Assembly (NCBI RefSeq): GCF_036588685.1
Contig: NC_086382.1
Location: forward strand, 70,680,001-70,744,000
DNA: 64,000 nt
Source of the DNA: Mytilus trossulus
Lineage: Eukaryota
Direction: 5' to 3'
A model generated the notes under the pieces. It saw only the letters and a list, made by a program, of their open reading frames with translations, did no database searches and had not been told where the DNA came from. The position numbers and the translations under genes were made by a program. Shown piece after piece: positions 15,124-56,324 of this stretch (position 1 is its first letter; every line of letters begins with the position of its first letter).

Positions 15124-15305
15124 NNNNNNNNNNNNNNNNNNNNNNNNNNNNNNNNNNNNNNNNNNNNNNNNNNNNNNNNNNNNNNNNNNNNNNNNNNNNN
15201 NNNNNNNNNNNNNNNNNNNNNNNNNNNNNNNNNNNNNNNNNNNNNNNNNNNNNNNNNNNNNNNNNNNNNNNNNNNNNNNNNNNNNNNNNNNNNNNNNNNN
15301 NNNNN
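15124..15305. other. Assembly gap (N run)
   Basis: Run of N. Confidence 1.
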
Positions 15306-15564: not shown

Positions 15565-17312
15565 TTATCTCAAAGATATATTAAATTTTTCCAAGTAAGT
15601 GCCATAGGAATTACTTATAAAACCTGAAGACTTGTTACGTTTAAAGCAAATTAACAAACGTTCGTGCAGCAGTTCATCCTGTCCACCGATCAGTACTTTA
15701 CCATCCCGTCCACTATTCAGTACTTTACCATCCTGTCCATCTTTTGGTACTACTATTATACGATCCTTGTCTGTTACAATAATGTTACCATAAGTATCTG
15801 AACAGAGTCCCCATGGTCCTGATAAATCATGTGTGTATTGCCAGATCAGTTCACCTGATTCATCCACACAGTTTACTGTTTTACCATGAAAGTCACTATA
15901 GATTACTCTGTTTTTACTGTAAACAAGACTACAAAGGTCTTGTTGGTTTCCATAAACTTTTAAAACTTCTGGACATTTTCCTTCAAGTCTATAATTAAAA
16001 TGTGAAAACGACCGTATCCTACTGCCAGAGAATTATTTGAGAACGATAATCCCATGAAATAATCGGGTGAATTTTCTAACGTGTTTAAATGGATAACTTT
16101 GATAAGTGTTTCTTTCTCCATGTTGAGAATCCTAATGAGGGTCATTTCAGGATATAGTACAGCAATAGTATTGTAATTGATCTGTGTAACACTGTATGAT
16201 TTAGGTATTGCAAAATGTTTCTGTACTTCAATTTCAATCTGTTTCTGAAAGATGCCATTAGATGTAAATAGGTTAAGTTTACCAAGCCATTCAACTACTA
16301 TAACTCTTCCGCCCATCAGACAAATTATGTCACTAATCTTCTTATTTGTGTTGATCTCTATCTTTGTCTCAATATTCATGGTCATGTTGTTTATGTTGGA
16401 TTGTTCACGTGATTTTACTTGTGGGTCCGTCCTTCCACTTGTGTCTCTTTTTAGGGTTATTTCAGTTTCATCAACCATTACCTCTCCTAATGATTCTTAT
16501 TGCTCCAATTTGCTCAGCACCTTTTCTAGTTCATCATTTTGCTTCATCTTGATGTTAAATAGGTTGGTCCTGTCGTCATATTCTAGATCATCAACATATC
16601 GTTGACATTGATGTACTTGTTGTTCAATCTGATGTACGCCCAGAAATGATTGTAGTTTTGGAGTATGTATTACAACTGCATGTAAATGCTTGCTCATTTC
16701 TTTCAAGTTTTTCCTTTTCTCTTTTATTTCAGAAATAAAATCTATGGCTGCTAATTTTTCCTGATTCCAGATTCTGTCTATTTCTTGGCATAGTTTCTCC
16801 TCCAGCTTATCCAATTGTTTGTTAATTGTCTGCCTAATTTTGATCATTGATTTCTTTATGCCCTCACACTTTTGTTCTCCTGTTTGTATGTTGGTTGTTT
16901 TGTTATTTATCATTTGATTCAAGAGATCTAAGATGGAGTTGATATCTTCCTCTACGGATTCTTTGGATTTTTCAATCTTAGTATTCTCAATAATGTTAGC
17001 TAAACTTTTTATCCCAGTACAATTTGAATGATTAACAGAAATACATTCATCACAGCAAGGCATTAAATGACTGGGGCAGTATAAGTTAAGTTGTTGACCA
17101 TGTTTGTCACATTCTGTTTTGATAGTTTTGGTAGATGGTTTATAACTTGTGATACTGATTGTCTTATGATTGAGTGTTCCTTTAAATCTTTTGTGATGAC
17201 CAGAACATGTTGAGCATAGTCCTTCATCACAGTTGTAACACCAGATGTCAGCTTCAGTGTTATTATTTCCTATTTGACAAGGTCCACATAGTACCGGTTT
17301 GCTGGTTGCCAT
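15565..17312 (-). pseudogene. Intronless B-box x2 / coiled-coil / NHL-like beta-propeller (TRIM-like, no RING), disrupted
   Basis: ATG at 17312 (MATSKPVLCGPC...CYNCDEGLCSTCSGHH; CDKH...YCPSHLMPCCDECISVNHSNC), then a coiled coil and propeller motifs (GPWGLCSDTYGNIIVTD). In-frame TAA at 16497-16499 (LEQ*ESLGEVMV) and a frameshift near 15960. Confidence 0.85.
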
Positions 17313-17520
17313 GACCTTTACATAATATGAAGAACATATATAGTAATCAAATTTATTCAGTAACCTTAACATATACAATACATTTATAAATTAGCTTAAT
17401 GAATGAAGTTTGAATGCTTGAGGTTAACTGGATGATATGTCCTATACAATTTGTATATACTAAGTAAATCTTTGTATGTTCTTTCCAACCGGGCCTGAAT
17501 TAGTGGTTATATACTTTATA

Positions 17521-18956: not shown

Positions 18957-19707
18957 TATATAAAGCAAGCTAAATGAGTTATCTCTCTTTGTATACTATA
19001 TACATCTATTCATTTATTTGGAGTGGTTTTTTCAATTTAATATTGCGATATGTAAATGAATGTGAACATGTTCTTTTTATTTAAAGTCATCAATAGTATT
19101 GACAAATTAATTCTGTGTCAGAAACAAATGCTGGATTAAATATTTGATCATAATCCAAATTCAGTCCGTCTGAGAGCTGCATCAAGCCTGAATGTAGTGT
19201 CATTGAATAATAATAATTAAAAAAACCAACTAAAACATGGAGGCAAATAAAATCCCTTTACATTATAATATAAATAGATACTAAGTCTGATTGTATATTA
19301 ATGACCAATATGTATATATCTATAAACCTCTTAATTCAGACATAAGTCATTTCATCTCAGTTTTTCAACAATGGCAGATTTAACAGATAGTAAATAAAGA
19401 CATGTTTATGCCTGAATCGGGTGATCAGTTTGCATTTTAAATGACGATTATTATACTAATATATAACATGCGAGAGCTTTAAAGTCGTCAGTCAATGTCT
19501 TTAATCCCCTCCCCTGTAGTGGAAGTCAGTATTAGTTTAATGATATTTTGATCAACAATATTTTATTATTGAAGACCCTATTATGGCTTCTTGTGGATTT
19601 TTTTCTAATGTACCACATCTCTTTATATTGGTTATCTTCCTAATAATAAGGAAATAATATATTGGGTATAAATAAATGACACGAAATCAAAACTCGATCA
19701 AGAAAAC

Positions 19708-21167
19708 ACAAAATACACCTGATACAATGGAACAGTGTGTTATTGCTATTCTTCAGAACAAAATACACCTGATACAATGGAACAGTGTGTTATTGCTTTT
19801 CTTCAGCACAAAATACACCTGATACAATGGAACAGTGTGTTATTGCTATTCTTCAGCACAAAATACACCTGATACAATGGAACAGTGTGTTATTGCTATT
19901 CTTCAGCATAAAATACACCTGATACAATGGAACAGTGTGTTATTGCTATTCTTCAGAACAAAATACACCTGATACAATGGAACAGTGTTTTATTGCTATT
20001 CTTCAGAACAAAATACACCTGATACAATGGAACAGTGTTTTATTGCCATTCTTCAGAACAAAATACACCTGATACAATGGAACAGTGTGTTATTGCTATT
20101 CTTCAGAACAAAATACACCTGATACAATGGAACAGTGTGTTATTGCTATTCTTCAGCACAAAATACACCTGATACAATGGAACAGTGTGTTATTGCTATT
20201 CTTCAGCACAAAATTCTTCAGAACAAAATACACCTGATACAATGGAACAGTGTGTTATTGCTATACTTCAGAACAAAATACACCTGATACAATGGAACAG
20301 TGTGTTATTGCTATTCTTCAGCACAAAATACACCTGATACAATTGAACAGTGTGTTATTGCTATTCTTCAGAACAAAATACACCTGATACAATGGAACAG
20401 TGTGTTATTGCTATTCTTCAGAACAAAATACACCTGATACAATGGAACAGTGTGTTATTGCTATTCTTCAGCACAAAATACACCTGATACAATGGAACAG
20501 TGTTTTATTGCTATTCTTCAGCACAAAATACACCTGATACAATGGAACAGTGTTTTATTGCTATTTTTCAGCACAAAATACACCTGATACAATGGAACAG
20601 TGTGTTATTGCTATCTTTCAGCACAAAACACACCTGATACAATGGAACAGTGTGTTATTGCTATTCTTCAGCACAAAATACACCTGATACAATGGAACAG
20701 TGTGTTATTGTTATTCTTCAGCACAAAATTCTTCAGAACAAAATACACCTGATACAATGGAACAGTGTGTTATTGCTATTCTTCAGAACAAAATACACCT
20801 GATACAATGGAACAGTGTGTTATTGCTATTCTTCAGCACAAAATACACCTGATACAATGGAACAGTGTTTTATTGCTATTCTTCAGAACAAAATACACCT
20901 GATACAATGGAACAGTGTGTTATTGCTATTCTTCAGCACAAAATACACCTGATACAATGGAACAGTGTTTTATTGCTATTTTTCAGCACAAAATACACCT
21001 GATACAATGGAACAGTGTGTTATTGCTATTTTTCAGCACAAAACACACCTGATACAATGGAACAGTGTGTTCTTGCTATTCTTCAGCACAAAATACACCT
21101 GATACAATGGAACAGTGTGTTATTGCTATTCTTCAGAACAAAATACACCTGATACAATGGAACAGTG
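19708..21167. repeat. 50-bp tandem satellite, ~29 copies
   Basis: Unit AAATACACCTGATACAATGGAACAGTGTGTTATTGCTATTCTTCAG(A/C)ACA, with two 15-bp insertions. Confidence 0.97.
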
Positions 21168-22279: not shown

Positions 22280-22500
22280 TTTTGTGCTGACATGAATTGT
22301 CATTGATATGGTTATACATGTATTTATATAAATTTACTGTTTACAAATTTTTATTTTTTTTGAAATACTAAGGCTTTTCTACCTCAGGCATAGATTACCT
22401 TAGCTGTATAAGCCAAAACTTTTAGGAATTTTGGTCCTCAATGCTCTTCAATTTCGTAATTTATTTAACCTTTTTAACTTTTTTGGATTCGAGCGTCACT
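22280..22500 (+). mobile_element. Retrozyme-like repeat fragment, truncated at the start of the hammerhead core
   Basis: Colinear with 60305-60514 and ends at GAGCGTCACT. Confidence 0.65.
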
Positions 22501-23530
22501 AAAAATAGTTACTGTCCTTTGAAATTGAAGAAACTACCTACCTATTTGTTCTTTGACCGGATTAGAATGAGTATTTCCCAAATGGACACCAAATAACAGA
22601 TATTACTTAGTCCTTTTATACACCATTTATTTATTCATATTTTTGCTTTTTTACTTTTAGGGTTGGGGATGTGGGTGTCAAAAGAAAGTCAGTTTTTACA
22701 TCTTAATTGCAGAGACAGTGTTATAAAGAATGGCGTGAAGATGGCCTAGGCATTTCGGTGATGGCAAACAAAAATATATCATGATGAAGTAATGATATAC
22801 AATTATAAACATGACTCTATTATTGTTTCTTTCAAACCGTCATACATTTATCATGGCTCTAAAGACCAGATTACATAGGTTGGGCTTTTTGGTTCTGTTA
22901 TACGTCGGCTATCCTCTGTTTTCTCGTTGGGATAAATTGGTGTATGACTCAGCAAACAGTGAATAGATTTATAAAGGGACTTGCCAGCAAATTGGAGTCT
23001 AGGTGGAATAGATGCTGGTGGCAGTTTTGGTAGAGGTCTAGTCACCGGAATGGGTCCAATGACAACGCGTTGAAACATAGTTCAATTAACTATAAGGTAA
23101 TTCATAATAATCGTTATATGATCTTTTATTTGATTTACATATATTTGATAATGGTCTTATTATGTAATTATCATTGCTTACATAACCAAGACTTTTAACA
23201 TCCATTTCAAAGATAATACAGAAATATAGAGTATACTCTTTAAATTTATTTTCTTATATTATATTAAATACAGTTTATTGTGTCACGGCAGAACTAATCT
23301 CCAAGCACAAAACATAATATAATTACACATCATTTTTAGTTACTCTCATAAAAACATAATCTTTGATATGCATACCTTTGAAATTCATTGATAACACATT
23401 TCAAATATGGTTTTCATACTTCATTGATTTTATAAGTAAATCATCAATTATGATCAAAAGCATGTGTACATTGCATGTATTATTTCTCAAATTGTTTATG
23501 GCAGAGGCAACACATGCATAATTGTTGATT

Positions 23531-23851
23531 TTATTTACAATCAAATCCATACAAAGTACATCCCTGATGTCTTACAGCATGGATGACGTCACTAGCTGTA
23601 ACAGTTTTCCTCTTCGCATGGTCCGTGTAAACGATGGCGTCATGTAGAACATGTTGTAAATATACACGCAAAACACCTCTTATTTCCGCGTAAACCAAGC
23701 CAGATATTCTTTTCACACCCCCTCTTCGGGCTAGACGTCTAATTGATGGTTTACTTGGTAACCAGCATGTGCATCGCTTCCTATGACGTTTATTACCCCC
23801 TAATCCTTTACCAGAATGATTTCTCCTATTAGAATCGTTGTCTGCTTCCAT
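23531..23851 (-). CDS. Divergent histone H4-like protein (106 aa)
   Basis: [38 protein letters not shown] and TLYGF. About 50/73 identities to canonical H4 over residues 30-102. Intact intronless ORF, TATA-like element near 23965 and AATAAA near 23275 on the minus strand. Confidence 0.85.
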
Positions 23852-23992
23852 CTCAGAAGATCTCAGAATAAATCCATGTCAAAATAAGTTGCTAAAATTA
23901 ATTAAAGTTCCTGGTTTCAATTTGTGATAACATTCAACTTATACATTGCGTTTAAATTTAGATTTTTATAATAAGGACATTTAACAAAATGT

Positions 23993-24237
23993 CAAAAACA
24001 TTTTAGCTACGAAACGTCATTAAACAATAATTAAAAATTTTATGCATCAAACTAACAACTTTGATGTTACAGTTTTCAATAAAGTGTGTATAATTCCAAA
24101 ATAAATAACAACAAAAACATTTTAGCTACGAAACGTCATTAAACAATAATTAAAAATTTTATGCATCAAACTAACAACTTTGATGTCACAGTTTTCAATA
24201 GAGCGTGTATAATTCCAAAATAAATAACAACAAAAAC
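23993..24237. repeat. 119-bp tandem duplication upstream of the H4-like gene
   Basis: TTTTAGCTACGAAACGTC... begins at 24001 and again at 24120, nearly identical. Confidence 0.95.
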
Positions 24238-24642
24238 GGTCATTTTGTATGAATTACAGAAATCTAAAACACAATAAATAAATGCCTGTTAATTAAGTTT
24301 CATGTAATTTGTCAAAAAGGATAAAATGTAGATACACCTGACCAAAAACTCAATATCCTACATAGAAAAAAATATATATAAAAGGGTCAGTAAAATCGAG
24401 TTTATTCTTCAAATACCACGCTATGAAAAAGTGTGTATGTCAATATATTTTTTTCTCCTCGTTGAAATAAAGGAATTAGGAAAGACAGTGTCCTGGCATT
24501 TCTCCAAATGGCATGTCATTGAGCTACATCTGAGAACATTACAAAAAGTATTTCAATATAATTATGTTCAACAGATTTGCCAGTAAGTTTTAAAGTGGTG
24601 TCCATAAAAAAAGTCCACTTCGGAGCGACAACAAATAAATGG

Positions 24643-25130
24643 AACAAGAATGTGTCCAAAGTACACGGATGCCCCACTCGCACTATCCTTTTGCATGTTC
24701 CATGGACCGTGAAATTGGGAAATAATCTAGTTAGGCATTAAAATTAGAAAGATTATACTTTAGGGAACATATGTACTAAGTTTCAAGTTGGTTGGACTTC
24801 AAATTCATCAAAAACTACCTTGACCAAAAACTTTAACCTGAAACTTCCACTTTCATTTTCTATGTTCAGTGAAACGTGAAAAAAAAACAAAAGACAAAAG
24901 TCTAATTTGGCTTTAAAATTAGAAAGATCATATCATAAGCAACAAGTGTACTAAGTTTCAAGTTGATCGAACTTTAGCTTCATCAAAAACTACCTTGACC
25001 AAAAACTTTAACCTGAACGAACGGACGCACAGACGAACGGACGCACTGACGAACGGACGCACAGACGAACGAACGGAGCCACAGACCAGAAAACATAATG
25101 CCCCTCTACTATCGTAGGTGGGGCATAAAC
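24643..25130. mobile_element. HINE/Helentron-like element (truncated copy at 55681-55893)
   Basis: AACAAGAATGTGTCC start, two core repeats (TACTAAGTTTCAAGTTG), an ACGG/ACAG microsatellite and a 3' hairpin ATGCCCC...GGGGCAT. Confidence 0.8.
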
Positions 25131-25289: not shown

Positions 25290-27140
25290 TATTTCTATTG
25301 TCTATTACGTATTTATCCCATATCGATATCATCGTTACTTTTCATTGTTTTTATCTATGTTTCCCTCATTGATACCCTCCCCCTGATTTTTCATTGTCTC
25401 ATAATATTTTCCCCATATTGATAACCAGTGACTTTTCATTGTCTATTATGTATTTATCCCATATTGATATCCTGGTGACTTTTCATTGTCTATGGCGAAT
25501 TTTCCCCATATTGATACCCCCCTGACTTATTATTGTCTATAACGTATTTAACCCATATTGATACCCTCGTGACTTTTCATGGTCTATAGCGTATTTTCCC
25601 CGGAGAGATACCATCGTGACTTTTCATTGTCTATTTCTTATTTATCCCATATTGATACCCTCGTGACTTTTCATTGTCTATTACGTTTTTTCCCCATGGT
25701 GATACCATCGTGACTTTATATTGTCGATTACGTATTTATCGCATATTGATACCCCGTGACTTTTCATTGTCTATTACGTATTTTCCCCATATTGATACCC
25801 CGTGAATTTTCATTGTCTATTACATATTTCTCCCTATTGATACCTCCTAACTTGTCATTGTCTATTACGTACATATCGCGTATTAATACCCCGTAATTTT
25901 TCATTGTTTATTACGTATTTTCCCCATATTGATACCCCGTAACTTTTCATTGTTTATTACGTATTTCCCCCATATTGATACCCCGTGACATTTTATAGTC
26001 TATTACGTATTTTCCCCATATTGACACCCCCATGACTTTTTATTGTCTATTACGTTTTTTCCTCATATTGATACCCCCGAGACTTTTTATTGTCTATTAC
26101 GTATTTTCCCCATATTGATATTCCGTGACTTTTTATTGTCTATTACGTATTTTCCTCATATTGATACCCCCGTGACTTTTCATGGCTACCTTAAATGAAA
26201 TTCCGTTCCGTTCCGTTCCGTTCCGTAAAGTACCAATAGCCCTTTTCATTGTTTATTACGTATTTCCCCATAGTGATACCACCGTGACTTTTTATTGTCT
26301 ATTACGTATTTTCCCCATATCGATACCCCGTGACTTTTTATTGTCTATTACGTATTTTCCCCATATTGATACCCCGTGACTTTTTATTGTCTATTACGTA
26401 TTTTCCTCATATTGATACCCTCGTGACTTTTCATTGTCTATTACGTATTTTCCCCATATCGATACCACGTGACTTTTCATTGTCTATCACGTATTTTCCC
26501 CATATTGATACCCCGTAACTTTTCATTGTTTATTACGTATTTTCCTCATATTGATACCCCTGGACTTTTCATTGTCTATTACGTATTTTCCCCATATTGA
26601 TACCCCCAAGACTTTTCATTGTCTATTACATATTTTCCCCATATTGATACCCCGTGACTTTTTATTGTCTATTACGTATTTTCCCCATATTGATACCCCG
26701 TGACTTTTCATTGTCTTTTACGTATTTCCCCCATATTGATACCCCGTGACTTTTCATTGTCTATTACGTGTTTCCCCCCTATTGATACTCCCATGACTTT
26801 TTATTGTCTATTACGTATTTTCCTCACGTTGATACCCCGTGACTTTTCATTGTCTATTACGTATTTTCCCCATATTGATACCCCCGTGACTTTTCATTTG
26901 TTTATTACGTATTTCCCCCATATTGATACCCCGTGATTTTTCATTGTCTATTACGTATATTCCTCACATTGATACACCCGTGATTTTATTGTCTTTTTTT
27001 ATTAATTTATTCCACATTGATACCAAAGTGATTCTCCATTGTCTCTTATGTATCAATATTATGTATTTTTCGTACATTTATACCACCGCGACTTTTCATT
27101 CTTTATATTTTTTTACCCTTATTGATCTACCGTGACTTTA
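25290..27140. repeat. ~46-47-bp minisatellite with degenerate edges
   Basis: Unit GTGACTTTTCATTGTCTATTACGTATTTTCCCCATATTGATACCCC(C). Confidence 0.95.
26184..26241. mobile_element. 58-bp mini-MITE with 8-bp TSD inside the minisatellite
   Basis: CTTTTCAT|GGCTA...(TTCCG)5...TAGCC|CTTTTCAT. Confidence 0.8.
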
Positions 27141-27633: not shown

Positions 27634-27790
27634 ATGGAGGCAGCCAGTCCAGTTGGTCAAGCTAATGCGGGAATAGCTGTTTGTCGTGGTATTACAAGTC
27701 TTTGTGTGACTATGATTGCATGGATTCTGACATTATCTGCTATCATTGGAATAGCGAATGATAATTGGAGCATTTTGAATAGCGAACTAG
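27634..27790 (+). CDS. Claudin/PMP22-like membrane protein, exon 1
   Basis: MEAASPVGQ...ITSLCVTMIAWILTLSAIIGIANDNWSIL: TM1 followed by the conserved W. Phase-1 GT donor at 27791. Confidence 0.65.
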
Positions 27791-28231
27791 GTTTGTTTGT
27801 CTTTTTTTAGTATTAGTATTTCACGAAATTACTTACTGAATCTCGATTGTACATAGATATATAAACCCATCAATGGGAAATAGTAGTACACATAAGACAA
27901 AACAAGGTCAGCTAAACGACTCCTACAATGGAAGCGTATACACCGTTCGATATAATAAGACTAAATATATAAGCGACATCTTGTGAAACAACCAAATAGC
28001 TAAAGAAAAAGATTAGATGTTGGTCTCTTGTGGACAGTTGTCTCATTGGCAATCATACGAGATTCATACTACATTTTCTTTTTTATAGGTTGAAAAAAAT
28101 AGTCATCAGAACAAAACCAATAAGTCTTCGACGGAAAAGTAGAAAACATTATAAATAAAGATATTTATAATACTACATGAAGTACATAATGTACTTCTAG
28201 GTTTACTCATCAGATGTTGTTATTTTTCTAG

Positions 28232-28279
28232 GATGTGGACTAAAAGCTGCCTTTGGACTATTCGTTTGTGCGGATAGTT
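28232..28279 (+). CDS. Claudin/PMP22-like protein, exon 2
   Basis: tttttctag acceptor and gtatgt donor. In frame with exon 1: GCGLKAAFGLFVCADS, a GLW/F-xC-like motif. Confidence 0.55.
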
Positions 28280-28439
28280 GTATGTTTTTCCTGATATGTT
28301 GGGATGGAACAAACCTAGTGATATTATGCTATTCACAAACTATGTGTAATTGTGAATGCTATCACATGAACTTCTCCCTTCAGTTAGCTTCTTGTGAGTA
28401 TTCAATAGTATTAAAAGGTTACAATGTACTATATCCAAT

Positions 28440-28820
28440 GGGGTAAAAAAGAAAGAAAAAAAGTTGATGACCGTAACTGCATTCACGGTCATCCCTAGAT
28501 GAATGATGAAAAATTAGGTCAGTTTCTGTTTTGTCTGTTAAAGGCGTTCTATAAAATAAAAAAAGCATTCATTGATACGATGTAAAAGATTCACACGGAA
28601 ATCGAAAATTACTTATGAGAAATGTGTACGAATTCGAACTGGAAATTGGATTTAAAAAAAATCGTTATAAAGATGTTCGTAAATCATCATTATAATATTT
28701 CCAAGATGACCGTAACATATTACAAGGATGACCGTGATTGGTAAACAGATGACCGTAGTTTGAAAAGGATGACCGTAATCTATAAAGAATGACAGTAACT
28801 TTTAAAGGATGACCATCAAT
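28440..28820. repeat. MITE-like remnant with repeated GATGACCGT motifs
   Basis: GATGACCGT...ACGGTCATC hairpin at 28466-28492 and about six direct copies at 28705-28815. Confidence 0.55.
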
Positions 28821-31800
28821 TTAAAGAATTATTCGTACATGTATTTGTCACATGATTACCTCTAATTATCAAATGTTAATTAATAGTGTTGATATAAATC
28901 GTATTTATAAGACAGCATTATCCTTAAGATAGAAGAGACTAAGACGTGCTTCAATTTCATAATTCAAATTTACAACAAAATACAACTGTCTGTCAAAATG
29001 GTTCAACATTATAATCAGGTTGTGAGAAAATTTAGTTTAAAAAGTGTATAGTTTTTGCAACAACAAAAGGCAGATTGCTTCTCGACATTTCAAAGACATA
29101 AAAAATGTAAAGAAACATGACTTTTTCACAAAATTCGAATAAAATAAACTACTTTTTCCGAATAAAAGCATTCTATTTGAATGAATAAAATGGTTCTCAT
29201 CGTTATTTTGTATAATCATAATATGAAACTTGGTAAAAAAAGAAATATTTACACAAAATTGATTTTTCTGATCGTGAAAGAATCCGTACCGCTTTTTTGA
29301 AGATCGTGAACATGATCGTGAAAGATCTGATGCTACGACGACGTTTAGATTGTTCTTCAATTATATAATAATTAACATTTGTTATAGGTACTGAGAAAAA
29401 CTTAATAGGCCGATATCCTCAATTAAATTGAAGCATTTTATGTATAAAAAAATTATATCTATTAGCCTGTAAATAGTTATCAAAGGTACCAGGATTACAT
29501 CCGGCACAATAGCTCTTGTTCAAACATAAACCTCGAGGAGCCAATGAACTAATACTTATAAAGACAATCCATATAATCGCTTGCTCAAGATATAAGCGGA
29601 GTAACAGGAGAACAAAAAATACAAACAAATTATTATTTGTGCATTTGTGAACATGAGAGTTATTTGTATAATAATTGGCTGATTGTAGGATGAAGGTTTT
29701 TATTGTCATGTGAAGTACTCACTTATAACGAGTTATAGGATAACTACATTTTGTATATTAGATCCTATAAATTACATGTCCGTCAGACAGGATTCACCTG
29801 ACCTCGACTTTATCTCATTTCATGGATCAAGAATTAGTTTTGTGGTCAAGTCCGTATCGCGGATTCTTTAAGCTTTGGGATAACTCTGTTGTTATGAGTG
29901 TATGGTGTACATGTTTTACTTCTGCAAGGTTTCAAATAACATTGACCTTATAACCATGCATCATTTGGCAATGCTCGTTTTATGTTGTTTGGCCTTTTAT
30001 ACCTGTATGTTATAACACCACGGTATTTGGTGTATGGTGTACCTGTCTGTCTGCATGTTTCATGTATGACGTCAATTGTATTAGATATATCGAATGATAG
30101 TAAGATGTCCATGTCTGGCCGTCGGTAGGGGTAAATATACTATCGACCTTATGTTCCAAATTAATTGACCAGACCTAACTTTTACATTTGTCAGTTTCTA
30201 AGTGTGAGGATCGGAAGACCTATATTTGGTGTACGGGATGTTTGTAGAGATCTGTATGGCATGGTTTATCTGACCTTGACCTCTTTTTATGAACCATTGA
30301 CAATCTTAAGCGTACATGTATTTGACACTTCTAGTTAAACTCTCAAGTGATATTACAGACGTTGAAAAAATATACTATCATAACTTAAGCAGAAGAGACA
30401 TTTCAGCATTTGCGCTCTGGTATTCTTTAGTCTGTAGTACAAAGTTATCTCATTGGAAATCAATTCACATCTGCAACGTTGTATAACGACAAATAGAACT
30501 TAAGGAAGTACTGTTGAACAAAATGTTGGGTATCCTTCAATCTCAAATTGTTCATGAACGATGCTATTTTTACTGTAAGTGTTTTAAGGTAACACGATAC
30601 CGAATGGCATATCTCCCGATTTCCAAACTTTTTGGCACATGTGTTCTTTGATTCGAGTTACATCAGACTATGTAATAAAAAATGGGGGTCACCATTTTTG
30701 TTTTCTTGGTATTTTCATAAGAAAACGTCAATTTTGGCGACAAATTTACTTAGGTATATAGGGGAAATGCCTATTTTTCGGCTTAAGTTTTTAGATTTTC
30801 CAATGGATGGCTATGTTCTGATATACGGAGAAAAACAAAAAACTAACATAATATCCAGGATTGCATACTGAATCCATACACGTATAGAAACTTATATGTC
30901 ACCATCCTTGTTTTTGAGATAAATGGCTTCAAAGATGATTGATACCATTAGAATTTGGCCGAAAACGTGTGACGTTATTGAATACAGAATGTAACGTTAT
31001 TCCTACTCAGAGAAATGGAAAACAAAATATGTGTCGGAATCTGAATGGTGTTTATTTTATTTAATTTCCCCTGTCGGTAGTCGTAAATTTCCTAGTAATG
31101 CAATATGAAATATTTTGTCCCGCTAATAGAAATTTCATTCAAATGAATTAACATTAATTTTGTCTGATTTTCACACCAAACGAGCATATTGTAATTCAGT
31201 GGTTGTGGTTTGTTTATGTGTAGTCTTTTTCCCGGCCGTTATTGAAATTCTTGATAAAGATGAACATTAAAGCTATTATTTTTTTAATTCAACACTTTAT
31301 CATCGAAAGTTAGATAAAAAAAAAACTAAAAACTTCAAAATAGTTACAGGTTTCAACCAGTTGCAGGTATATAAAATGGTAAACGATATATTGCTTTCTG
31401 ATTACAACATGCATGAGTATGTACCGCAAGACGATAAATAAACGTGTACTTATTTTAATTAAGAAAAGTGAAATAAAATATATGGCAACGTATGGATGTA
31501 TCATTCATGATGATTTTTTTTTAATTCAAATGTCACTTGCTTCAGATATATAAAATAACTCTCAGAATTTGATTCATTGCTGTTGTGCCGAAGTTTGCGT
31601 TAATTCCTAAAACGATCAATATTCTAATTGATACGAATATTATTCAAGTGATATTTAAATTTCCTCGTTGGTCTCTGGAAGATTTGTGTAAAACATGTTA
31701 AATATTTGTTGTCGAGTTGCTGTCTCATTGAAATGTACCCAAATCAGATTTTGTTGAAATATTATGGTATATTAAAACCGGTTATATTAAAAAGAGAAAC

Positions 31801-32382
31801 GCATTTCAACAAGGTGAAATCAAATATTTTATTATTTAATATTTTATATATATATTCTTCGTATGATTTAAGGATATGATATGACTAAAGTAACTGAATT
31901 TCGTATGGTTGTGTAATGTGTACAATGTACAACCAATCTATACTTTTCTCAGGTTGGTTGTATGACTAATATCTTTACATTATATCCATTGGATTAATAT
32001 ATGTGATTTTTGTTTCATACTTTCTGTGCCTAGTCCAAAGCTAATGGGTATAGTCTTTTTTGATGGACTTTTAAAATCAAATGATATGTATACGACTCTC
32101 CGACAAAATGTAAATAAAAAGAGGAAAACCCGCCAATAACGTACCAAAATAGTCACTGTGAATTTTCGAATGGCTTGAAGTTGAATGGTGTCTTATGGCA
32201 AAATTGCCAGTGAAAGAAAAAGTAACCGAATAGCAACAATATATTTTTCTAAATATTCTTTACATATACATAGTTGTATGTTTATATTCTGATGAGGGAA
32301 TAAAGAAGGAAAAAAAAAGAATCCCCATAATGAAGTGTATCATTCACATTTATAATAAAATATAAATGTTTGTTTCTTTCAG

Positions 32383-32594
32383 TTGGAATGCTACTAATTG
32401 GAGCCATAATTCACGGGACTAATGACCCTGATAATATAAATTGGACCTTTTGGTTCTGTTTAGTATCGTCTCTCCTCTGTCTTATACTAGGAATAATGTG
32501 GAAAATTACTCAAAAAATGAAAAGATTTGTGAAGAAAGAAGCAAGTGGGGCTCTAGATGGAATGGGTGCTGGTGTAATTGCAGGAATGATATAA
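32383..32594 (+). CDS. Claudin/PMP22-like protein, last exon
   Basis: ttctttcag acceptor. GMLLIGAIIHG...NWTFWFCLVSSLLCLILGIMW resembles the TM3-loop-TM4 pattern. Stop at 32592-32594. Confidence 0.6.
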
Positions 32595-35098
32595 TGACAG
32601 AACTGAATAAACTTTCTAGGTGTAAATGATTATTAATAATTTTTTTTTTACGCATTATGATAATGGTTAAAAACTTGGCTCAGTAGACTGTTTTAGCATT
32701 ACAAGATTAACTATATTTAATTACAATTCAAAGATTTTCAACATCCAGTTGAAAGATAATCCACATTAATAATCCGTCAGTGGTTTGCAAACGCTTACAT
32801 TGATACTGAGGCATAGTTCATGTAGGACTATGTTCAAGGAGTAAACAGGTTAAAAGGTTCTGAAAAAAGTCGACATATGTTTTGAAGTTAACATAAAACA
32901 TATGTGACTCTCTAGTCGTAACTTTCTGTCTTTAAATTAGTATTCTTGTTAGTTTTTAGCTTTGTATAATGTCGATTCAGTCAACCCCTTTACAATTGGC
33001 TTTATAGATAATAGAAGAAAAAGGATATAGATTATCCATTTAAGTTCCAAAATCAGTCCGTGCACGGCTAAAACACAAGAAGAAAAGCAACAGCGATTTT
33101 ATTAAAGTATTTTGCATTTTTAAATCTCTTTGTCGGGTTAAAGGCTGGTTGGGCTCCCGCAGGTATGGTTCGCGTTGTGCCTGTATCAAAATGTTTAGCC
33201 TGAATTGCATTGATTGTCGTTTGTTGGTGTACACCTGCTCTAAAACACATTACGGGACTATAAAATTAAAGCAACCGGACATCCCTATGTGCCTGTATCA
33301 ATCGTATTCGTTGGCCTTAGCAAATTTTCATCAATACTTTACTCAACCGTGATGGACGTTGACGTGATTAGAAATTCGATAAATGTCTTCATCAACCAAC
33401 TCGTCTTCTTTATCTTTTCTAAATGAACATTAAAAATTAATTGAAAATATTTGAAATTAAAATATGTATGTAGGTAACATTCTATAAGGTCCAAAGTCAT
33501 TAAGTTGAAATTTGCATAATGAAGATGTCGGTATCAAAGTACAATGTACTAGATAGCTCATTAAATATTCATCAAATTTCAATAATTATTATTCATAGAT
33601 ATAAGAAGATGTGGTATGAGTGTCAATGAGACAAGTTGAATTCTCCATTCAAGTCACACTTTATAAAAGTAAACCATTATAGGTCGTCAACACGGAGCCT
33701 TGGCTCACATCGAACAGCAAGCTCTATGTATGAAAATCATACGATATTAATTTATTGTTACTTGTTGATATTGAGTATCCATCTTTAAAGATAATATCAA
33801 CTAGTATTTGGAATGAATAAAATTTACAAATTTTAGAACATGAAATACATTTGTCTCGCAGTTTTATTGTTGAATAAAAATGCATATATAACAATATTTT
33901 AGCAAAATAAAATAATTTTCTTGTTATTATCTCAAAACTAAATTGTGACCTGTTCTTCTTCCCTTGTGACCGTTACGTTTTATTTCCTGAATTCATCGAA
34001 AGTATCCTACGTAAAATATAGCAAATTGGTTTTATATCTTTAATTTCCTTGTTTGATTAGATTTAGTTAAATATTCTCACACTCAAATACAAGTGCTTAA
34101 TATAAATTGTTCAGTAATATTTTATCAGTTGGTCAACTTTCAATAAAACAATGAAATCTTCAGAGGATAACATGTCCATTAATGTAATAAAATAATAAAA
34201 CAGATGTAAAATATAATGTACATGTACCATATAATTTCAAATCTCGGTCTATGACATATTTTATAATACTTTCATAGTAAACACCAATACTTAAAGGAGA
34301 TCTCATGTGTGATTTTAATGGGAGTTCAAACCTTAAAATGCATTTTATAAGTACCAATCATGTGAAGTGAAAAAAACATTGTGAAGGAAGCGAGACCGGA
34401 TGAGTCGGCCATGTGTAAATTTGTACTAAAACGAGCAACACGACGGGTGCCACATATGGAGTCGGATACTAGTATGCTTACCTTCCGAAGCTCAGTGGTA
34501 TGTGCAGATTTACTGGTTAAAAGTGACACAAGTGCTTGATGAAGTATGGCAGTGAGAGAACGTAATTTTGTGAGAATTCTGATTCAAATCAAATATCAAA
34601 TAACAAAATTAAGTCCAAGAGTTGTGCACAATTATCACCTATTGGTATGTCTACTTTTTATGTAAACTACAGACGAAATTAAAACAACAAATTTAAATCT
34701 AAACAAAATGGTGTATTTTATACAAATACGTTTAAAAGTTTAAACTATTACTTTATCCAGGAACATACTGTTCCCAGCTTTATCTGACACACGAACGTTG
34801 CCAGTGAATGACGATAAAGATGAGTTGTTAGCTGGCAAATAAGATTTATTTCAAAAGAAAAATAAATGAGTTGTGGAGTTTACTACAAATTCTACAGTTA
34901 AAAAAATGACAATAGATAAAAACAAATATTCCTTACTGGACAGTTTAATCAGATACATATAGACTTGTCAAGTCTCAGGGTGATACTAAGGTCTGTATAA
35001 TAAAGAGCATCATATATTAAGATGACTTAGATGAATATCCGTGTTAGTTTTTTTTTCATCTTGCTCAAATCTATAATCTGAAGTATCATTAGCATATA

Positions 35099-39049: not shown

Positions 39050-41068
39050 AGTGAATGGTGTGTCTCAAAAATAAAATGATATATCTCAAGAAACTAAATG
39101 GTTCATCTCAAGACGCTAATTGATATATTTCGTCACCAAATGATAAAGACACGAAATTGCATATCTCAAGAACCAAATGATATGCATCTCAAGACACCAA
39201 ATGATAAATCACAAGAAACCAAATGGCATATCTCAAGAAACCTAACGGTATATCTCAAGAAACCAAACGGTATATATCAAGAAACCTAACGGTATATCTC
39301 AAGAAACCTAACGGTATATCTCAAGAAACCAAGCGGTATATATCAAGAAACCTAACGGTATATATCAAGAAACCAAACGAAATATCTCAAGAAACCAAAC
39401 ATGTATATCTCAAGAAACCAAACGGTATATCTCAAGAAACCAAACGGTATATCTCAAGAAACCAAACGGTATATCTCAAGAAACCAAACGGTATATCTCA
39501 AGAAACCAAACGAAATATCTCAAGAAACCAAACATGTATATCTCAAGAAACCAAACGGTATATCTCAAGAAACCAAACGGTATATATCAAGAAACCAAAC
39601 GGTATATATCAAGAAACCAAACGAAATATCTCAAGAAACCAAACATGTATATCTCAAGAAACCAAACGGTATATCTCAAGAAACCAAACGGTATATCTCA
39701 AGAAACCTAACGGTATATATCAAGAAACCAGACGGTATATCTCAAGAAACCTAACGGTATATATCAAGAAACCAAACGGTATATCTCAAGAAACCAAACG
39801 GTATATATCAAGAAACCTAACGGTATATCTCAAGAAACCAAATGGTATATCGCAAGAAACCAAACTGTGCATCTCAAGAAACCAAACATGTATATCTCAA
39901 GATACCAAACGTTAAATCTCACGAAACCACTTGATTTATCTAAAGAACCATAATGGTACACCTTAGGAATCCAAATGGTTTATCTGAAGAAACCGATCGA
40001 AATATCTCAAGAAACTTGATAGTACTAGTATGCTTTGAGATATTCATGGACATATATCGCACGAAACCAATTGATACATCCGATGAAACCATATGACATA
40101 TCTAACGTAAACAAATGGTATATCTCAAAAAAACAAATTGTACATCCCAAACAACTTAACGGTTACGGTATATCTCGAGACACCAAATGATATATCTTAA
40201 GAAATCAAATGGTACATCCCAAGAAATCAAATCGTACATCCCGAGAAATATAATGGTACATCTCAATATCAAATGGTACATCTCCATATCAAATGATATG
40301 TCTCAATATCAAATGGTACATCCCAAGAAATCAAATGATACATCTCTAAATCAAAATGGTACGTCTCGATTTCAAATGGTACATCCCGAAAAATCAAATG
40401 GTACATCCCGAAAAATCAAATGGTACATCCCGAAGAATCAAATGGTAAATCCCGAAAATCAAATGTTATATCTTAAGAATATAAATGATACATCCCGACA
40501 TATCAAATGGTACATCTCAAGTAACGCAATGGTATATCTCAAGAAATCAGATGATATTATATTTAAATCAAAATCAAAACGATTGGTTTATCGCAAGTCA
40601 CCAAATGATATATCTCAAGAAATCAAATGTTACATCTCAGGTAACGATATATCAAGACACCAAATGTTACATCTCAAGAAATCAAATGTTACATCTCAGG
40701 TAACGAAATGGTTTATATCAACAAACCAAATGATAAATCTCAAGAAACACAATTTATGATATATCTCAAGAAACAAAATTTATGATATATCTCAAGAAAC
40801 AAAATAGTTTATCTTGAGAAACCAATTGTACATCGCGAGAAACCAAATAGTACATCGCGAGAAACTAAATAGTACATCGCGAGAAACCAAATAGTACATC
40901 GCGAGAAACCAAATAGTACATCGCGAGAAACCAAATAGTACATCGCGAGAAACCAAATAGTACATCGCGAGAAACCAAATAGGACATCGTGAGAAACCAA
41001 AAAGTACATCGCGAGAAACCAAATAGTACATCGCGAGAAACCAAATAGTGCATCGTAAGAACCCAAAA
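39050..41068. repeat. 22-bp satellite with three sub-arrays in a CAP intron
   Basis: AAACCAAACGGTATATCTCAAG (39220-39900), degenerate AAATCAAATGGTACATCCCG (39900-40800) and AAACCAAATAGTACATCGCGAG (40820-41065). Confidence 0.95.
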
Positions 41069-53749: not shown

Positions 53750-54904
53750 TTAATGTGTACAAAGCACAACTAGCACTGTAATTGTGGCAATTATAACTAT
53801 TACAGACGTTATCCAAAACAATACCAAATCAAACGACGAAATAACATCACCCCACGTGATCTCTTGTTTACTTTCTGTTTCATTTTTATAATTCGATTCA
53901 ATTTTCTTCACATTTCGGCATTTCATTAGCTTGATTATGTTCTTTGGAACATCGTCTTTACGATGGTGAAACCGAAGTTCTATAATCGTACAGCACACAA
54001 CAAAAGTTCCCATGCCTAGCTGGAACATTAGATAATATCCCAATATTGATCCAGATGTTTTGGGAAGCTCGGAACTGACAATTGTAAGAAAAACGGCAAA
54101 AGAAAGAAACACTGTAATGCAATATCCCATTTTTTCACCGCTGTCAGCCGGAAGTGCAAAAGTAAACACATTTAATACACCGAGTAGAATGATTGGAATG
54201 ATAATATTCATTAAATAATAGGTTGAATTTCTTTTCAAGTTTAATGTAAATATAACCCTAGATTCGGACGACATAACGTCCTCTCGTGCAGCTGTTGACA
54301 CTACTGACCATTCAGCATTATTTTCTAAGCTATTTAAAATAATTCCATTATTCCACAGAGTTACCATCACATCTGCATTACTACTTGACCACACCACAAA
54401 CACAATGTCACAAGATTGTCGGTCATAAGGAAAATATGTAATATCGATTGTACATTTGGATTCAAAAACTTCAAACGGCATCCAGGTAACTTGTCCATTA
54501 CTTCCTACCTTAGCTTTTATAAAACTGCTTCCAAGTTCCCTCAATTTTGTAAATCCATTTTGTAATGTTATATCAGGTATCCAAATATCTGCTTGTGGAA
54601 CATAAACGTGACCTAATTCGCCAAAGTCAGCTGAAGTCCAATTCAAATACTCATCTATCCATCCAATATTTAAATAACCGGTTGTTGTCAGTTTCTGTTT
54701 TAGTTCGTCCAATTCGTTTATTCCCACAAGGTAAAGATCTAAATCTAAGATCATAGGTTGTCGTTGATCCATATTTGGTCGGACTTGCTTTTTATAATCG
54801 TTTGTTGTAAACAATTGTTTGATAAGATTTTTAACATTATCGCCACTCTGTCCTTCAATCTTTACAAACAGTAGTAGAAAAACGAAATACCCCAAACCCA
54901 ACAT
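53750..54904 (-). CDS. Intronless nicotinic acetylcholine receptor-like Cys-loop channel subunit (non-alpha, 384 aa)
   Basis: Signal peptide, WIPDI, Cys-loop CTIDITYFPYDRQSC, four TMs and LPADSGEK before M2. No vicinal Cys in loop C. Confidence 0.95.
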   Translation of the reverse strand: MLGLGYFVFLLLFVKIEGQSGDNVKNLIKQLFTTNDYKKQVRPNMDQRQPMILDLDLYLVGINELDELKQKLTTTGYLNIGWIDEYLNWTSADFGELGHVYVPQADIWIPDITLQNGFTKLRELGSSFIKAKVGSNGQVTWMPFEVFESKCTIDITYFPYDRQSCDIVFVVWSSSNADVMVTLWNNGIILNSLENNAEWSVVSTAAREDVMSSESRVIFTLNLKRNSTYYLMNIIIPIILLGVLNVFTFALPADSGEKMGYCITVFLSFAVFLTIVSSELPKTSGSILGYYLMFQLGMGTFVVCCTIIELRFHHRKDDVPKNIIKLMKCRNVKKIESNYKNETESKQEITWGDVISSFDLVLFWITSVIVIIATITVLVVLCTH

Positions 54905-56324
54905 TTTACCACTCCATTTTTATGTTCAAATGAATATTCGCCTATATTGCATCTAATTTCCAATATATTTAATCCAAAAAAAATAGTTTTAATTAGACAC
55001 GTAGTTGCTGCATTTAAAATTGTATATCCAATTTACGTGTACCATTATTCTCTCACAAAATTTAAAATGCATGCGTATTTATTACATAATGATTCTTATG
55101 GGAATTCATATTTGACATGTATCTATGAGTATAAAATCACAATACTAACAATAAAATTGAAATGCATATCAAGTATTACTTTTTTTATCTATTTTGTGAG
55201 AAAAATCTATTATGAAAACTTTATTATTTTATGTTAACAAACCCAAAACTCACTGTGCAATCGATGTAAACAAATTATCTAATGGTTTGCATGATCGATT
55301 GTGAATGGAAGAGTTAAGGTATCAAAATGAATACACGGAGTTGAAAGCCAATTTGAGTCGATCAAAAAGTATAATGGTCACGGAGAAGCTTTGAGAGAAT
55401 CCGTGTTTCATTCTTTTTGATATTTAAAAGACGACGAATATATTAATAAAGGAATTCAAATGATTGTATTCCTAACCATCTGTGGCGTAAGTATCGTAGT
55501 TCTTTAAAATCATAAAGATATTTTTTTACACTATTAAATCTCCAAAAAACTTCAGGCAGCATTAGTCTACCAGCAGTCAACATAAAAATAAAAAAAATAT
55601 AGAAAACAGTATAACAAAAAAACTTTATCTACCGTACGTTAATTAGCTGAATTTGATGCCGGACTTTAACACATATCTAAAACAAGAATGTGTCCTCAGT
55701 ACACGAATGTCCCACTCGCACTTTCATTTTCTATGTTCAGTGGACCGTGACATTGGGATAAAACTCTAATTTGGCATTACAATTAGAAAGATCATATCAT
55801 AGGGAACATGTGTACTAAGTTTGAAGTTGATTGGACTCCAACTTCATCAAAAATTACCTTGACCAAAAACCTGAAGCGGGACAGACGGACGAACATACTA
55901 AGAGATGTATGTGGTATGAATTTTACAGTGACTTGACTGATAGTGTTGCTCTCCACCACTTGCAACTCCTCATTCAAAATTTTGTCCATAAATGCAATTT
56001 GTTTTATTAAACTAAATGATTCAACTGGTCAGAATATTTAACAAATTGTTCAGTCAAAATGTGAAAGTGCAAGGAGATAACATAAAGCATACTTACAATC
56101 CTATAAGACTTTAACTCCACTTAAATGATGTTGTGACAAAATTAGTCACATTATGTTTTATTTTATCCCCTTGCACCTTCATGACTCGGTTGTGGTTTTC
56201 TACAGCAGTTAGTTCAAACTTCTGACCATTTACACTGTAATATGACACGCAACAATGCAATGTTCAAGTGAAGTGGATCAAAATAATTATATGGCCACCA
56301 TATGATAATTTATAAAAGAAAAAC

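What the first reader, a model, noticed from the sequence alone, without database searches (positions are those of the whole stretch)
23531..23851. Solitary, intact and strongly diverged histone H4 that lacks the deposition-linked lysines and has gained cysteines
Seen: a full 106-aa ORF outside any histone cluster, about 68% identical to canonical H4 in the fold. About 10 of 23 changes are conservative (I/V, K/R, F/Y, E/D), and the [14 protein letters not shown] and HAKRKT segments are unchanged. It has an acidic N-terminal extension (MEADND). K8, K16 and K20 equivalents are kept, K5 and K12 are lost, K59 and K91 become R, and there are four Cys. I saw no histone stem-loop, but AATAAA lies ~250 nt downstream. 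Known: metazoan H4 is nearly invariant, K5/K12/K91 acetylation accompanies chromatin assembly, and divergent H4s occur in some viruses such as bracoviruses. Inference: either a selected, polyadenylated H4 variant (possibly germline and disulfide-forming) or a histone mimic carried by a virus or transposon.
Basis: partly seen in the sequence, partly recalled or inferred. Interest (0 to 1): 0.85.

Follow-up and report, generated by a model that had tools for sequence, protein, structure and literature searches.

The report
Highly divergent mussel histone H4 variant
Beside about 149 ordinary histone H4 genes, this mussel genome carries one intact, solitary H4 gene that differs at 20 of 70 core residues in a pattern that shows selection, so it is likely a working H4 variant (rare in animals), predicted to bind H3 and DNA but to hold H2A-H2B more weakly, possibly in the germ line.

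Summary
Confirmed: an intact 106-aa H4-like ORF on the minus strand (23851-23531), the only H4 found outside the two histone clusters of this genome. It lacks the histone stem-loop and has two AATAAA signals. A Mytilus galloprovincialis orthologue is intact (92%).

Against the genome's own H4, synonymous sites are saturated (pS 0.76-0.83) while pN is 0.18. Simulated neutral decay never gave such conservative changes. The DNA-binding loops are unchanged and H3-facing changes are conservative. Less conservative ones fall on the H2B-facing and solvent surfaces (Y88H, R92H, R95C, T71V) and in a fast-evolving tail without K5/K12.

Contigs from four studies cover the gene, but the runs are only guessed to be RNA, so expression and tissue are not shown. 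One contig may carry a frameshift. A viral or transposon origin has no support.

Best reading: a selected, replication-independent H4 variant that likely makes looser nucleosomes, perhaps in the germ line. The genome also holds an equally divergent H3.3-derived gene, an untested candidate partner.

The parts
23531..23851 (-). Coding sequence of the divergent H4 variant, 106 aa, no intron
   Evidence: best PDB matches are all histone H4, E 1e-34; Pfam CENP-T_C 32.4 bits, cut-off 28.1
23543..23752 (-). Histone fold and C-terminal strand (canonical residues 31-100); 50 of 70 identical, loops L1 and L2 unchanged
23753..23836 (-). Remodelled N-terminal tail: K8/K16/K20 kept, K5 and K12 lost, two 2-residue deletions, Cys-x-Cys-Trp in place of residues 21-28; fast evolving
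   Evidence: 7 of 9 differences among the three proteins lie in residues 1-33
23837..23851 (-). Five-codon N-terminal extension, likely recruited from the 5' UTR of a C9-cluster-type H4 gene
   Evidence: 10 of 12 nt match the 12 nt before the C9 H4 start codon; P 0.0016 against random window segments, test chosen after seeing the alignment
23863..23877 (-). Short out-of-frame upstream ORF (4 codons), ending 11 nt before the main ATG
   Evidence: effect on translation untested
23938..23970 (-). Two TATA-like words upstream of the gene (putative promoter)
   Evidence: sequence only, AT-rich DNA, may be chance
23274..23279 (-). Polyadenylation signal AATAAA, 252 nt after the stop
23245..23250 (-). 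Second AATAAA, 281 nt after the stop; two laid contigs end 11 and 19 nt beyond it
23205..23921 (-). Extent covered by contigs of four public runs from four studies (putative transcript)
   Evidence: table 8; the runs are only guessed to be RNA or are of unknown kind

Best explanation
This is an intact, single-copy histone H4 gene whose protein has been under purifying selection since it left the histone clusters, and it likely acts as a polyadenylated, replication-independent H4 variant that is predicted to pair with H3 and bind DNA normally but to dock H2A-H2B more weakly, likely loosening nucleosomes in the male germ line. Shown: intact ORF, single copy, no stem-loop, poly(A) signals, an intact orthologue, and a selected substitution pattern that spares the DNA-binding loops and keeps the H3-facing surface conservative. 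Inferred: origin as a displaced copy of a C9-type cluster gene that took five codons from its old 5' UTR; transcription and polyadenylation; escape from K5/K12 acetylation and possibly K20 methylation because the tail is remodelled; a weaker H4-H2B four-helix bundle through Y88H, T71V, K91R and R92H. The germ-line role is by analogy only. My odds: a gene shaped by selection 0.95, still functional 0.75, looser nucleosome 0.55-0.6, germ line about 0.45.
For: Selection: pS 0.76-0.83 against pN 0.18 versus all 4 canonical CDS types, Fisher p<1e-13; the two clusters differ from each other by pS 0.40-0.44. In 6 x 4000 neutral-decay simulations run to the same 20 changes, 21-36% had no stop, and none of those reached the observed mean BLOSUM62 of +1.05 (neutral -0.35 to -0.57, sd 0.37), also when started from a parent already carrying the variant's synonymous codons. 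Changes fall on positions that vary in other H4s (0.148 vs 0.060, p 4e-5; 85 non-canonical cores, a set biased by how it was fetched). Intact orthologues: P0002 (M. galloprovincialis, 92%) and P0122 (Logan, 7 contigs). Listed fold differences in the laid contigs are 4 synonymous to 1 non-synonymous (p 0.015). H3 binding: complex model score 0.85, best of 3 controls 0.00; this mark was reached by 51 of 78 solved complexes and 2 of 108 mismatched pairs; runs agree in at least 93% of contacts, partner pLDDT at least 73; H3-H4 is a textbook pair, so the pass may be from memory. The 12 changes on the modelled H3 face average +1.75 BLOSUM62, the 8 others 0.0 (p 0.012); L1 0 of 7 and L2 0 of 6 changed, helix 3 6 of 11. 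H4 Y88 is named as a stacking residue of the H4/H2B bundle in 10.1101/2024.12.31.630874 (passage). One 691-nt contig spans the whole ORF and 3' flank.
Against: No holder is on record as RNA and no DNA run was laid as control, so transcription, strand and tissue are not shown. One contig of organism B (depth 5.4) lacks a net 10 letters between 23562 and 23769, which would be a frameshift if real (my reading of tables 3 and 8). One contig carries K79E in the DNA-binding loop and two carry G18W; P0002 has two fold changes. An upstream ORF may dampen translation. No orthologue outside this 90% cluster was found in three protein searches and one profile-library search, although saturation implies an old gene. 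The fraction of changed positions is the same on and off the H3 face (12 of 40 vs 8 of 30, p 0.80). Y72, H75 and the 96-100 strand that help bind H2A-H2B are kept. No octamer model was run.
Confidence: 0.5

Rival explanations
1. The gene was a selected H4 variant for a long time but has recently lost its job and is now decaying or dispensable, still weakly transcribed.
For: Possible 10-letter deletion in one organism-B contig, K79E and G18W alleles, a fast-changing tail, an upstream ORF; no orthologue found beyond the 90% cluster.
Against: Intact ORFs in the window, P0002 and P0122; 4 synonymous to 1 non-synonymous listed fold difference; P0122 is identical to the window protein over the whole fold; the deletion rests on one contig at depth 5.4.
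Confidence: 0.2
2. The variant works as a dedicated partner of the divergent H3.3-derived gene on contig C3, forming a variant H3-H4 tetramer rather than pairing with ordinary H3.
For: The genome holds one other unexplained, intact, single-copy core-histone variant, and it is an H3: two exons, GT-AG intron at the H3.3 position, 33 of 58 and 33 of 41 residues identical to H3.3, pS 0.69 and saturated against pN 0.29 and 0.15. H3 and H4 are obligate partners (established knowledge).
Against: The genes are unlinked. No co-expression or binding data. The model with canonical H3 passes, so a special partner is not required.
Confidence: 0.2
3. A histone mimic brought in by a virus or transposon, or by transfer from another eukaryote.
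For: Synonymous sites are no closer to the mussel's H4 (0.30-0.32 identical codons) than to 88 foreign H4 loci (median 0.30, max 0.46); narrow known range; the protein tree is unresolved.
Against: The block is single-copy, and the repeat scan showed only short, imperfect AT-rich inverted matches around it. No viral family among the 11 long frames of the window scanned. Viral H4s are no closer than canonical H4 and share at most 2 derived residues. GC3 of 0.31 matches the host. The 5' flank resembles the own C9 H4 UTR. The lysine-rich extended tail with K5-K20 kept, described for bracovirus H4 (PMC9145170, passages), is absent.
Confidence: 0.04
4. An orphon pseudogene that has drifted neutrally since it left the cluster and is open by chance.
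For: Orphon histone copies are common (established knowledge); no stem-loop; CpG-type changes R67H, R92H and R95C.
Against: Neutral decay gives pS about 0.15 (max 0.36) at this protein distance and never the observed conservative spectrum. Three Arg codons changed at two bases yet stayed Arg.
Confidence: 0.02

Closest known systems
Human H4.7 / H4G (H4C7) (PMC6895281: passages and section 17; PMC8015243: section 8)
   Same: Lineage-restricted metazoan H4 variant, polyadenylated, with changes in helices 2 and 3; binds H3 but does not form a stable nucleosome in vitro, the mechanism predicted here.
   Different: H4G is 85% identical, lies inside the histone cluster, lacks five C-terminal residues and has changes in helix 1. 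The mussel gene is solitary, 71% identical in the core, keeps the C-terminal strand and has a rebuilt tail. No shared origin is implied.
Oikopleura dioica H4t (PMC3156773: passages)
   Same: Invertebrate H4 variant; testis-enriched and found in sperm, the tissue proposed here by analogy.
   Different: Only three residue changes, and it lies in a male-specific cluster; the mussel protein has 20 core changes and its tissue is unknown.
Oryza H4.V (PMC7617672: abstract and section titles), ascomycete H4E (PMC10878826: abstract, introduction), Trypanosoma cruzi H4.V (PMC13052989: search listing only)
   Same: Genus- or clade-restricted H4 variants; H4E binds H3 and diverges in its termini; rice H4.V forms less stable nucleosomes; the T. 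cruzi gene is single-copy and apart from the arrays.
   Different: Not animals. H4E has its own introns and no knockout phenotype, a warning that a conserved H4 variant may have a subtle role.
Cotesia bracovirus H4 (PMC9145170: passages)
   Same: An H4 with an altered N-terminus derived from a host gene.
   Different: About 87% identical in the fold, keeps K5-K20, adds 38 residues with nine lysines and sits in a provirus; none of this holds here.
Canonical replication-dependent H4 of the same genome (clusters on C6 and C9)
   Same: Intronless; helix 1, L1 and L2 nearly identical; same stop position in the alleles of three laid runs.
   Different: Clustered, stem-loop-bearing, invariant protein in all 4 CDS types seen.

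Membership tests
Histone H4 | H4-type histone fold by sequence | tested here: met
   All 60 shown of 93 PDB matches are H4, best E 1.4e-34; Pfam PF15511 above cut-off
Histone H4 | DNA-contacting residues of helix 1, L1 and L2 (R35, R36, R39, R45, K77-T80; positions recalled) | tested here: met
   Residues 34-49 and 75-83 unchanged; one laid contig has K79E
Histone H4 | Heterodimer with H3 | tested here: inconclusive
   Model supports binding (0.85 vs best control 0.00), but this is a textbook pair and may pass from memory
Histone H4 | Incorporation into nucleosomes | not testable with these tools
   Needs reconstitution or chromatin proteomics
Canonical replication-dependent H4 gene | Cluster location | tested here: not met
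   Only non-cluster H4 among 150 scored matches
Canonical replication-dependent H4 gene | 3' stem-loop (RF00032) | tested here: not met
   None at E<=10; present in cluster genes
Canonical replication-dependent H4 gene | Invariant tail with K5, K8, K12, K16, K20 | tested here: not met
   K5 and K12 lost
Replication-independent histone variant | Solitary gene with distinct, selected protein sequence | tested here: met
   orthologue intact
Replication-independent histone variant | Polyadenylated mRNA | tested here: inconclusive
   Two AATAAA; two contigs end 11 and 19 nt past the second, but the runs are not on record as RNA and no tail was seen
Replication-independent histone variant | Expression outside S phase | not testable with these tools
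   No cell-cycle data
Testis-specific histone variant (H4t-like) | Testis-enriched expression and presence in spermatid or sperm chromatin | not testable with these tools
   Run tissues are not given
Viral or transposon-borne H4 mimic | Lies in a viral or multicopy mobile element with defined ends | tested here: not met
   Single-copy block; no viral families nearby
Viral or transposon-borne H4 mimic | Closer to viral H4 than to host H4 | tested here: not met
   Viral cores 45-49 of 70 identical versus 50 for host H4; tree otherwise unresolved
Histone pseudogene | Stops or frameshifts | tested here: inconclusive
   None in the window, P0002, P0122 or the contigs of three runs; a possible net 10-letter deletion in one contig of the fourth
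Histone pseudogene | Neutral substitution pattern | tested here: not met

The most novel reading that the evidence does not exclude
Mytilus mussels build a private, fully variant H3-H4 tetramer from this H4 and the divergent H3.3-derived gene on contig C3. It is deposited without K5/K12 acetylation in the germ line, where it sheds H2A-H2B and opens chromatin for protamine-like proteins or marks the sperm regions that keep histones.
Probability: 0.15. Interest if true: 0.92.

Novelty: new variant of a known kind. Interest (0 to 1): 0.7.

Why it matters
H4 is the most conserved histone and its variants are described as infrequent (PMC8015243, section 8). The animal examples I read about differ little from canonical H4: one residue in coral H4.S, three in Oikopleura H4t, 15% in human H4G. 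A survey of 28 molluscs listed 77 H2A, 76 H3 and 3 H2B variants and no H4 variant, and did not include Mytilus (PMC12210499). This gene differs at 29% of the core yet is selected. It is a natural experiment on which H4 surfaces an animal can give up (deposition lysines, Y88, K91, R92) and which it cannot (L1, L2, helix 1). Mytilus sperm chromatin keeps about 20% histones beside protamine-like proteins (PMC10046793, passage), so unique peptides and primers make the variant directly testable in an established system.

Tried and rejected
No RNA holder listed: 24 runs from 10 studies hold part of the stretch, none on record as RNA. In the four laid runs the bins 22570-23117 and 23940-24076 had no cover. 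Without a DNA run, and because holders were chosen with this gene, this is not counted as evidence. No splice joint at the gene was listed; an acceptor-like word 40 nt upstream is read through by one contig.

Distant orthologues: none (longer proteins: 31 hits, all with canonical-like or protist-like cores; metagenomes, best 80 of 503; viral, 8 loci) or 43. Small single-exon genes are often not annotated, so this is weak.

The single-chain AlphaFold model was poor (pLDDT 61.5, pTM 0.31), so its viral fold search (no hit at E<=0.001) is uninformative. The protein tree (39 rows, 70 columns) supports only the three Mytilus sequences as a clade. A remnant stem-loop in the 3' flank was not significant (P 0.11 and 0.04). 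A solitary canonical-protein H4 that could be the parent was not found (a gene with an intron inside both motifs would be missed). No solitary H2B by one pattern; the H2A pattern gave an H2A.X-like and an H2A.Z-like gene and one non-histone match.

The disulfide idea could not be tested. Santisteban 1997 is not held. Earlier scan notes had nothing on this gene.

Full report
OBSERVATION. The stretch 23531-23851 encodes, on the minus strand, an uninterrupted 106-aa protein. All 60 shown of its 93 PDB matches are histone H4 (best E 1.4e-34). Against the genome's own canonical H4 (read from a cluster locus), residues 31-100 are 50 of 70 identical, and residues 34-49 and 75-83 are unchanged. In the tail K8, K16 and K20 are kept, K5 is His, K12 falls in a two-residue deletion, and residues 21-30 are replaced by a shorter Cys-x-Cys-Trp segment. 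There is no RF00032 stem-loop (positive control). AATAAA words lie 252 and 281 nt after the stop.

COPY NUMBER AND CONTEXT. A protein search of the genome scored 150 of 158 candidates: this gene, and 149 matches in two clusters on C6 and C9. Patterns that exclude a codon used by both clusters match exactly only here. The 22510-24640 block is single-copy: of 40 scored (57 candidates), the rest are two short repeat fragments and 37 canonical H4 genes at 68%. The window is ordinary AT-rich animal DNA with a B-box gene remnant, a CAP-domain exon, a ligand-gated ion channel, a PARP exon and a reverse-transcriptase fragment (11 frames scanned, 5 with a family). No viral family appeared. The only N stretch (15124-15305) is far from the gene.

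ORTHOLOGUES. The best database hit is an intact 106-aa M. galloprovincialis protein at 92% (P0002, annotated as hypothetical or simply Histone H4). Its cluster has 3 members, the third from 7 Logan contigs. So the window is from a Mytilus-like mussel. All three proteins keep the four Cys. Seven of their 9 variable positions are in residues 1-33 (p 0.005). No more distant orthologue turned up. This is unexplained: saturation suggests an old gene, so either annotation misses it in other mussels or its range is narrow.

SELECTION. Against all 4 canonical CDS types recovered, pS is 0.76-0.83 and pN 0.18 (Fisher p<1e-13). The two clusters differ from each other by pS 0.40-0.44, and H3.3 versus cluster H3 gives pS 0.80-0.84. 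Synonymous divergence alone could come from an old parent that decayed later, so I simulated neutral decay to the same 20 amino-acid changes, from the cluster gene and from a parent already carrying the variant's synonymous codons (6 settings, 4000 runs each). Only 21-36% of runs stayed stop-free, and none of those reached the observed mean BLOSUM62 of +1.05 (neutral -0.35 to -0.57, sd 0.37). The changes also sit on positions that vary among other H4s (p 4e-5; that set was fetched by likeness to the variant, so it is biased). Neutral pseudogene decay is rejected. Some changes (R67H, R92H, R95C) are of CpG-deamination type, while R35, R45 and R55 lost their CpG by two-base synonymous change.

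TRANSCRIPTION AND PRESENT-DAY CONSTRAINT. Twenty-four runs from 10 studies and two organisms hold part of the stretch; none is on record as RNA. I laid 4 of the 24. Their contigs cover 23234-23921 (one 691-nt contig), 23318-23839, 23226-23783 (three contigs), and 23205-23403 plus 23540-23877. Two end 11 and 19 nt past the second AATAAA. The assemblies are 60-95 million letters against a 1.3-Gb genome, which looks transcriptome-like (my inference). This is a hint, not proof: no DNA control, no strand, no tissue. Of the differences listed (40 rows shown, 110 not), those in the fold are 4 synonymous to 1 non-synonymous (p 0.015). Three runs have a stop at codon 106, the canonical stop position. 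Against function: one contig has K79E, two have G18W, and one contig of organism B (depth 5.4) lacks a net 10 letters between 23562 and 23769, a frameshift if real (read from tables 3 and 8). A four-codon upstream ORF ends 11 nt before the ATG.

ORIGIN. Codons 2-5 match 10 of the 12 nt before the start codon of the C9-cluster H4 (P 0.0016 against random window segments; 85-nt alignment P about 0.005; no such match to the C6 type). I chose this test after seeing the alignment and made four such comparisons, and it sits uneasily with saturated synonymous sites, so it is a lead. It suggests a displaced cluster copy that took a new upstream ATG. Viral H4 cores are no closer than host H4 (45-49 versus 50 of 70) and share at most 2 of 20 derived residues. 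The tree resolves only the Mytilus clade.

MECHANISM. A model with the genome's canonical H3 scored 0.85 against a best control of 0.00 (mark reached by 51 of 78 solved complexes and 2 of 108 mismatched pairs; contact agreement at least 93%, partner pLDDT at least 73). H3-H4 is a textbook pair, so this shows likeness, not binding. Using that interface, the 12 changes facing H3 average +1.75 BLOSUM62 and the other 8 average 0.0 (p 0.012), though the share of changed positions does not differ (p 0.80). L1 and L2 are untouched, while helix 3 has 6 of 11 changed and the C-terminal half of helix 2 has 7 of 14 (segment limits recalled). The H4/H2B four-helix bundle rests on stacking of H4 Y72 and Y88 with H2B Y83 and L80 (10.1101/2024.12.31.630874, passage), and Y88 is His here. 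That T71, K91 and R92 also face H2B, and that K5/K12 are the HAT1 deposition marks, is recalled knowledge. I infer a protein that forms DNA-binding H3-H4 dimers or tetramers but holds H2A-H2B less well, as reported for human H4G, which binds H3 but forms no stable nucleosome by salt dialysis (PMC6895281, section 17). The germ-line step is analogy: Oikopleura H4t is testis-specific, and mammalian testis variants give less stable nucleosomes (PMC3156773, passages); Mytilus sperm keeps about 20% histones (PMC10046793, passage). Disulfide formation is untested.

A CANDIDATE PARTNER. The same codon-exclusion approach on H3 gave 4 matches (control pattern: 4). Three are real H3-family exons: H3.3 (C7), a cenH3-like gene (C2) and a further, single-copy gene on C3. 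That gene has two open exons and a 3000-nt GT-AG intron at the H3.3 position, 33 of 58 and 33 of 41 residues identical to H3.3 in the fold, and pS far above pN. No test links it to the H4 variant.

WHAT IS KNOWN. Ten literature searches (open-access PMC and bioRxiv only) found no description of this gene or of a molluscan H4 variant. PMC12210499 (abstract; sections 5, 10 part 1 of 2, and 18; supplement table part 1 of 7 and a term search) lists 77 H2A, 76 H3 and 3 H2B variants in 28 molluscs without Mytilus. Its FASTA supplements could not be read, so a divergent H4 filed there as canonical in Modiolus or Gigantidas cannot be excluded. PMC5550673 (passages) names H2A.X, H2A.Z, macroH2A and H3.3 as the studied bivalve variants. 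Other papers seen: PMC8015243 (section 8, passages), PMC10878826 (abstract, introduction), PMC7617672 (abstract, outline), PMC12311784, PMC12153100, PMC13525598 and PMC9145170 (passages), PMC13052989 (listing). Subscription papers on Mytilus histone genes were not searchable.

VERDICT. The gene is a member of the H4 family by sequence, not a canonical replication-dependent gene, not a neutral pseudogene and not a viral mimic on present evidence. It is a new, unusually divergent animal H4 variant. Selection is shown; expression is hinted; the mechanism and tissue are inferred. Interest 0.7.

Noticed in passing
G000:C3:57419229-57422639, minus strand (L149:2229-5639): A second strongly divergent, intact, single-copy core histone: an H3.3-derived gene with one 3000-nt GT-AG intron at the H3.3 position, about 48% identical to H3 in exon 1, a rebuilt tail, and pS far above pN. 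No description of it was found; candidate partner of the H4 variant and worth its own follow-up.
   Followed up: partly
G000:C7:64134327 (L145), C2:54812487 (L143, L152), C5:3588138 (L159), C7:72181452 (L160): H3.3, a cenH3-like gene, an H2A.X-like gene (ends in SQEY) and an H2A.Z-like exon of this genome.
   Followed up: partly
G000:C6:33.64-34.10 Mb and C9:27.63-28.03 Mb: Two arrays of H4-H3-H2B-H2A units of about 5.6 kb with many inversions; their H4 genes differ by pS 0.40-0.44 but encode the same protein; a few copies are truncated or frameshifted.
   Followed up: partly
window 27634-32600, plus strand: Small multi-exon gene for a hydrophobic, Cys-rich protein, starting about 3.8 kb upstream of the H4 variant and pointing away from it; no Pfam match for its first exon. 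Useful synteny anchor.
   Followed up: no
window 15565-17390, minus strand: B-box/coiled-coil (TRIM-like) gene split over three frames, probably a broken copy.
   Followed up: no
window 53750-54919, minus strand: Intronless 389-aa frame for a neurotransmitter-gated ion channel subunit (Pfam LBD and membrane domains).
   Followed up: no
window 22290-22500 and 24643-25129: Dispersed repeats with very high contig depth in the laid runs; the second has two 122-nt internal repeats and a short microsatellite.
   Followed up: no
window 19707-21167, 23993-24237, 25292-26994, 39161-41045: Tandem arrays with units of 50, 119, 46-47 and 22 nt; the 119-nt duplication lies just upstream of the putative promoter.
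   Followed up: no
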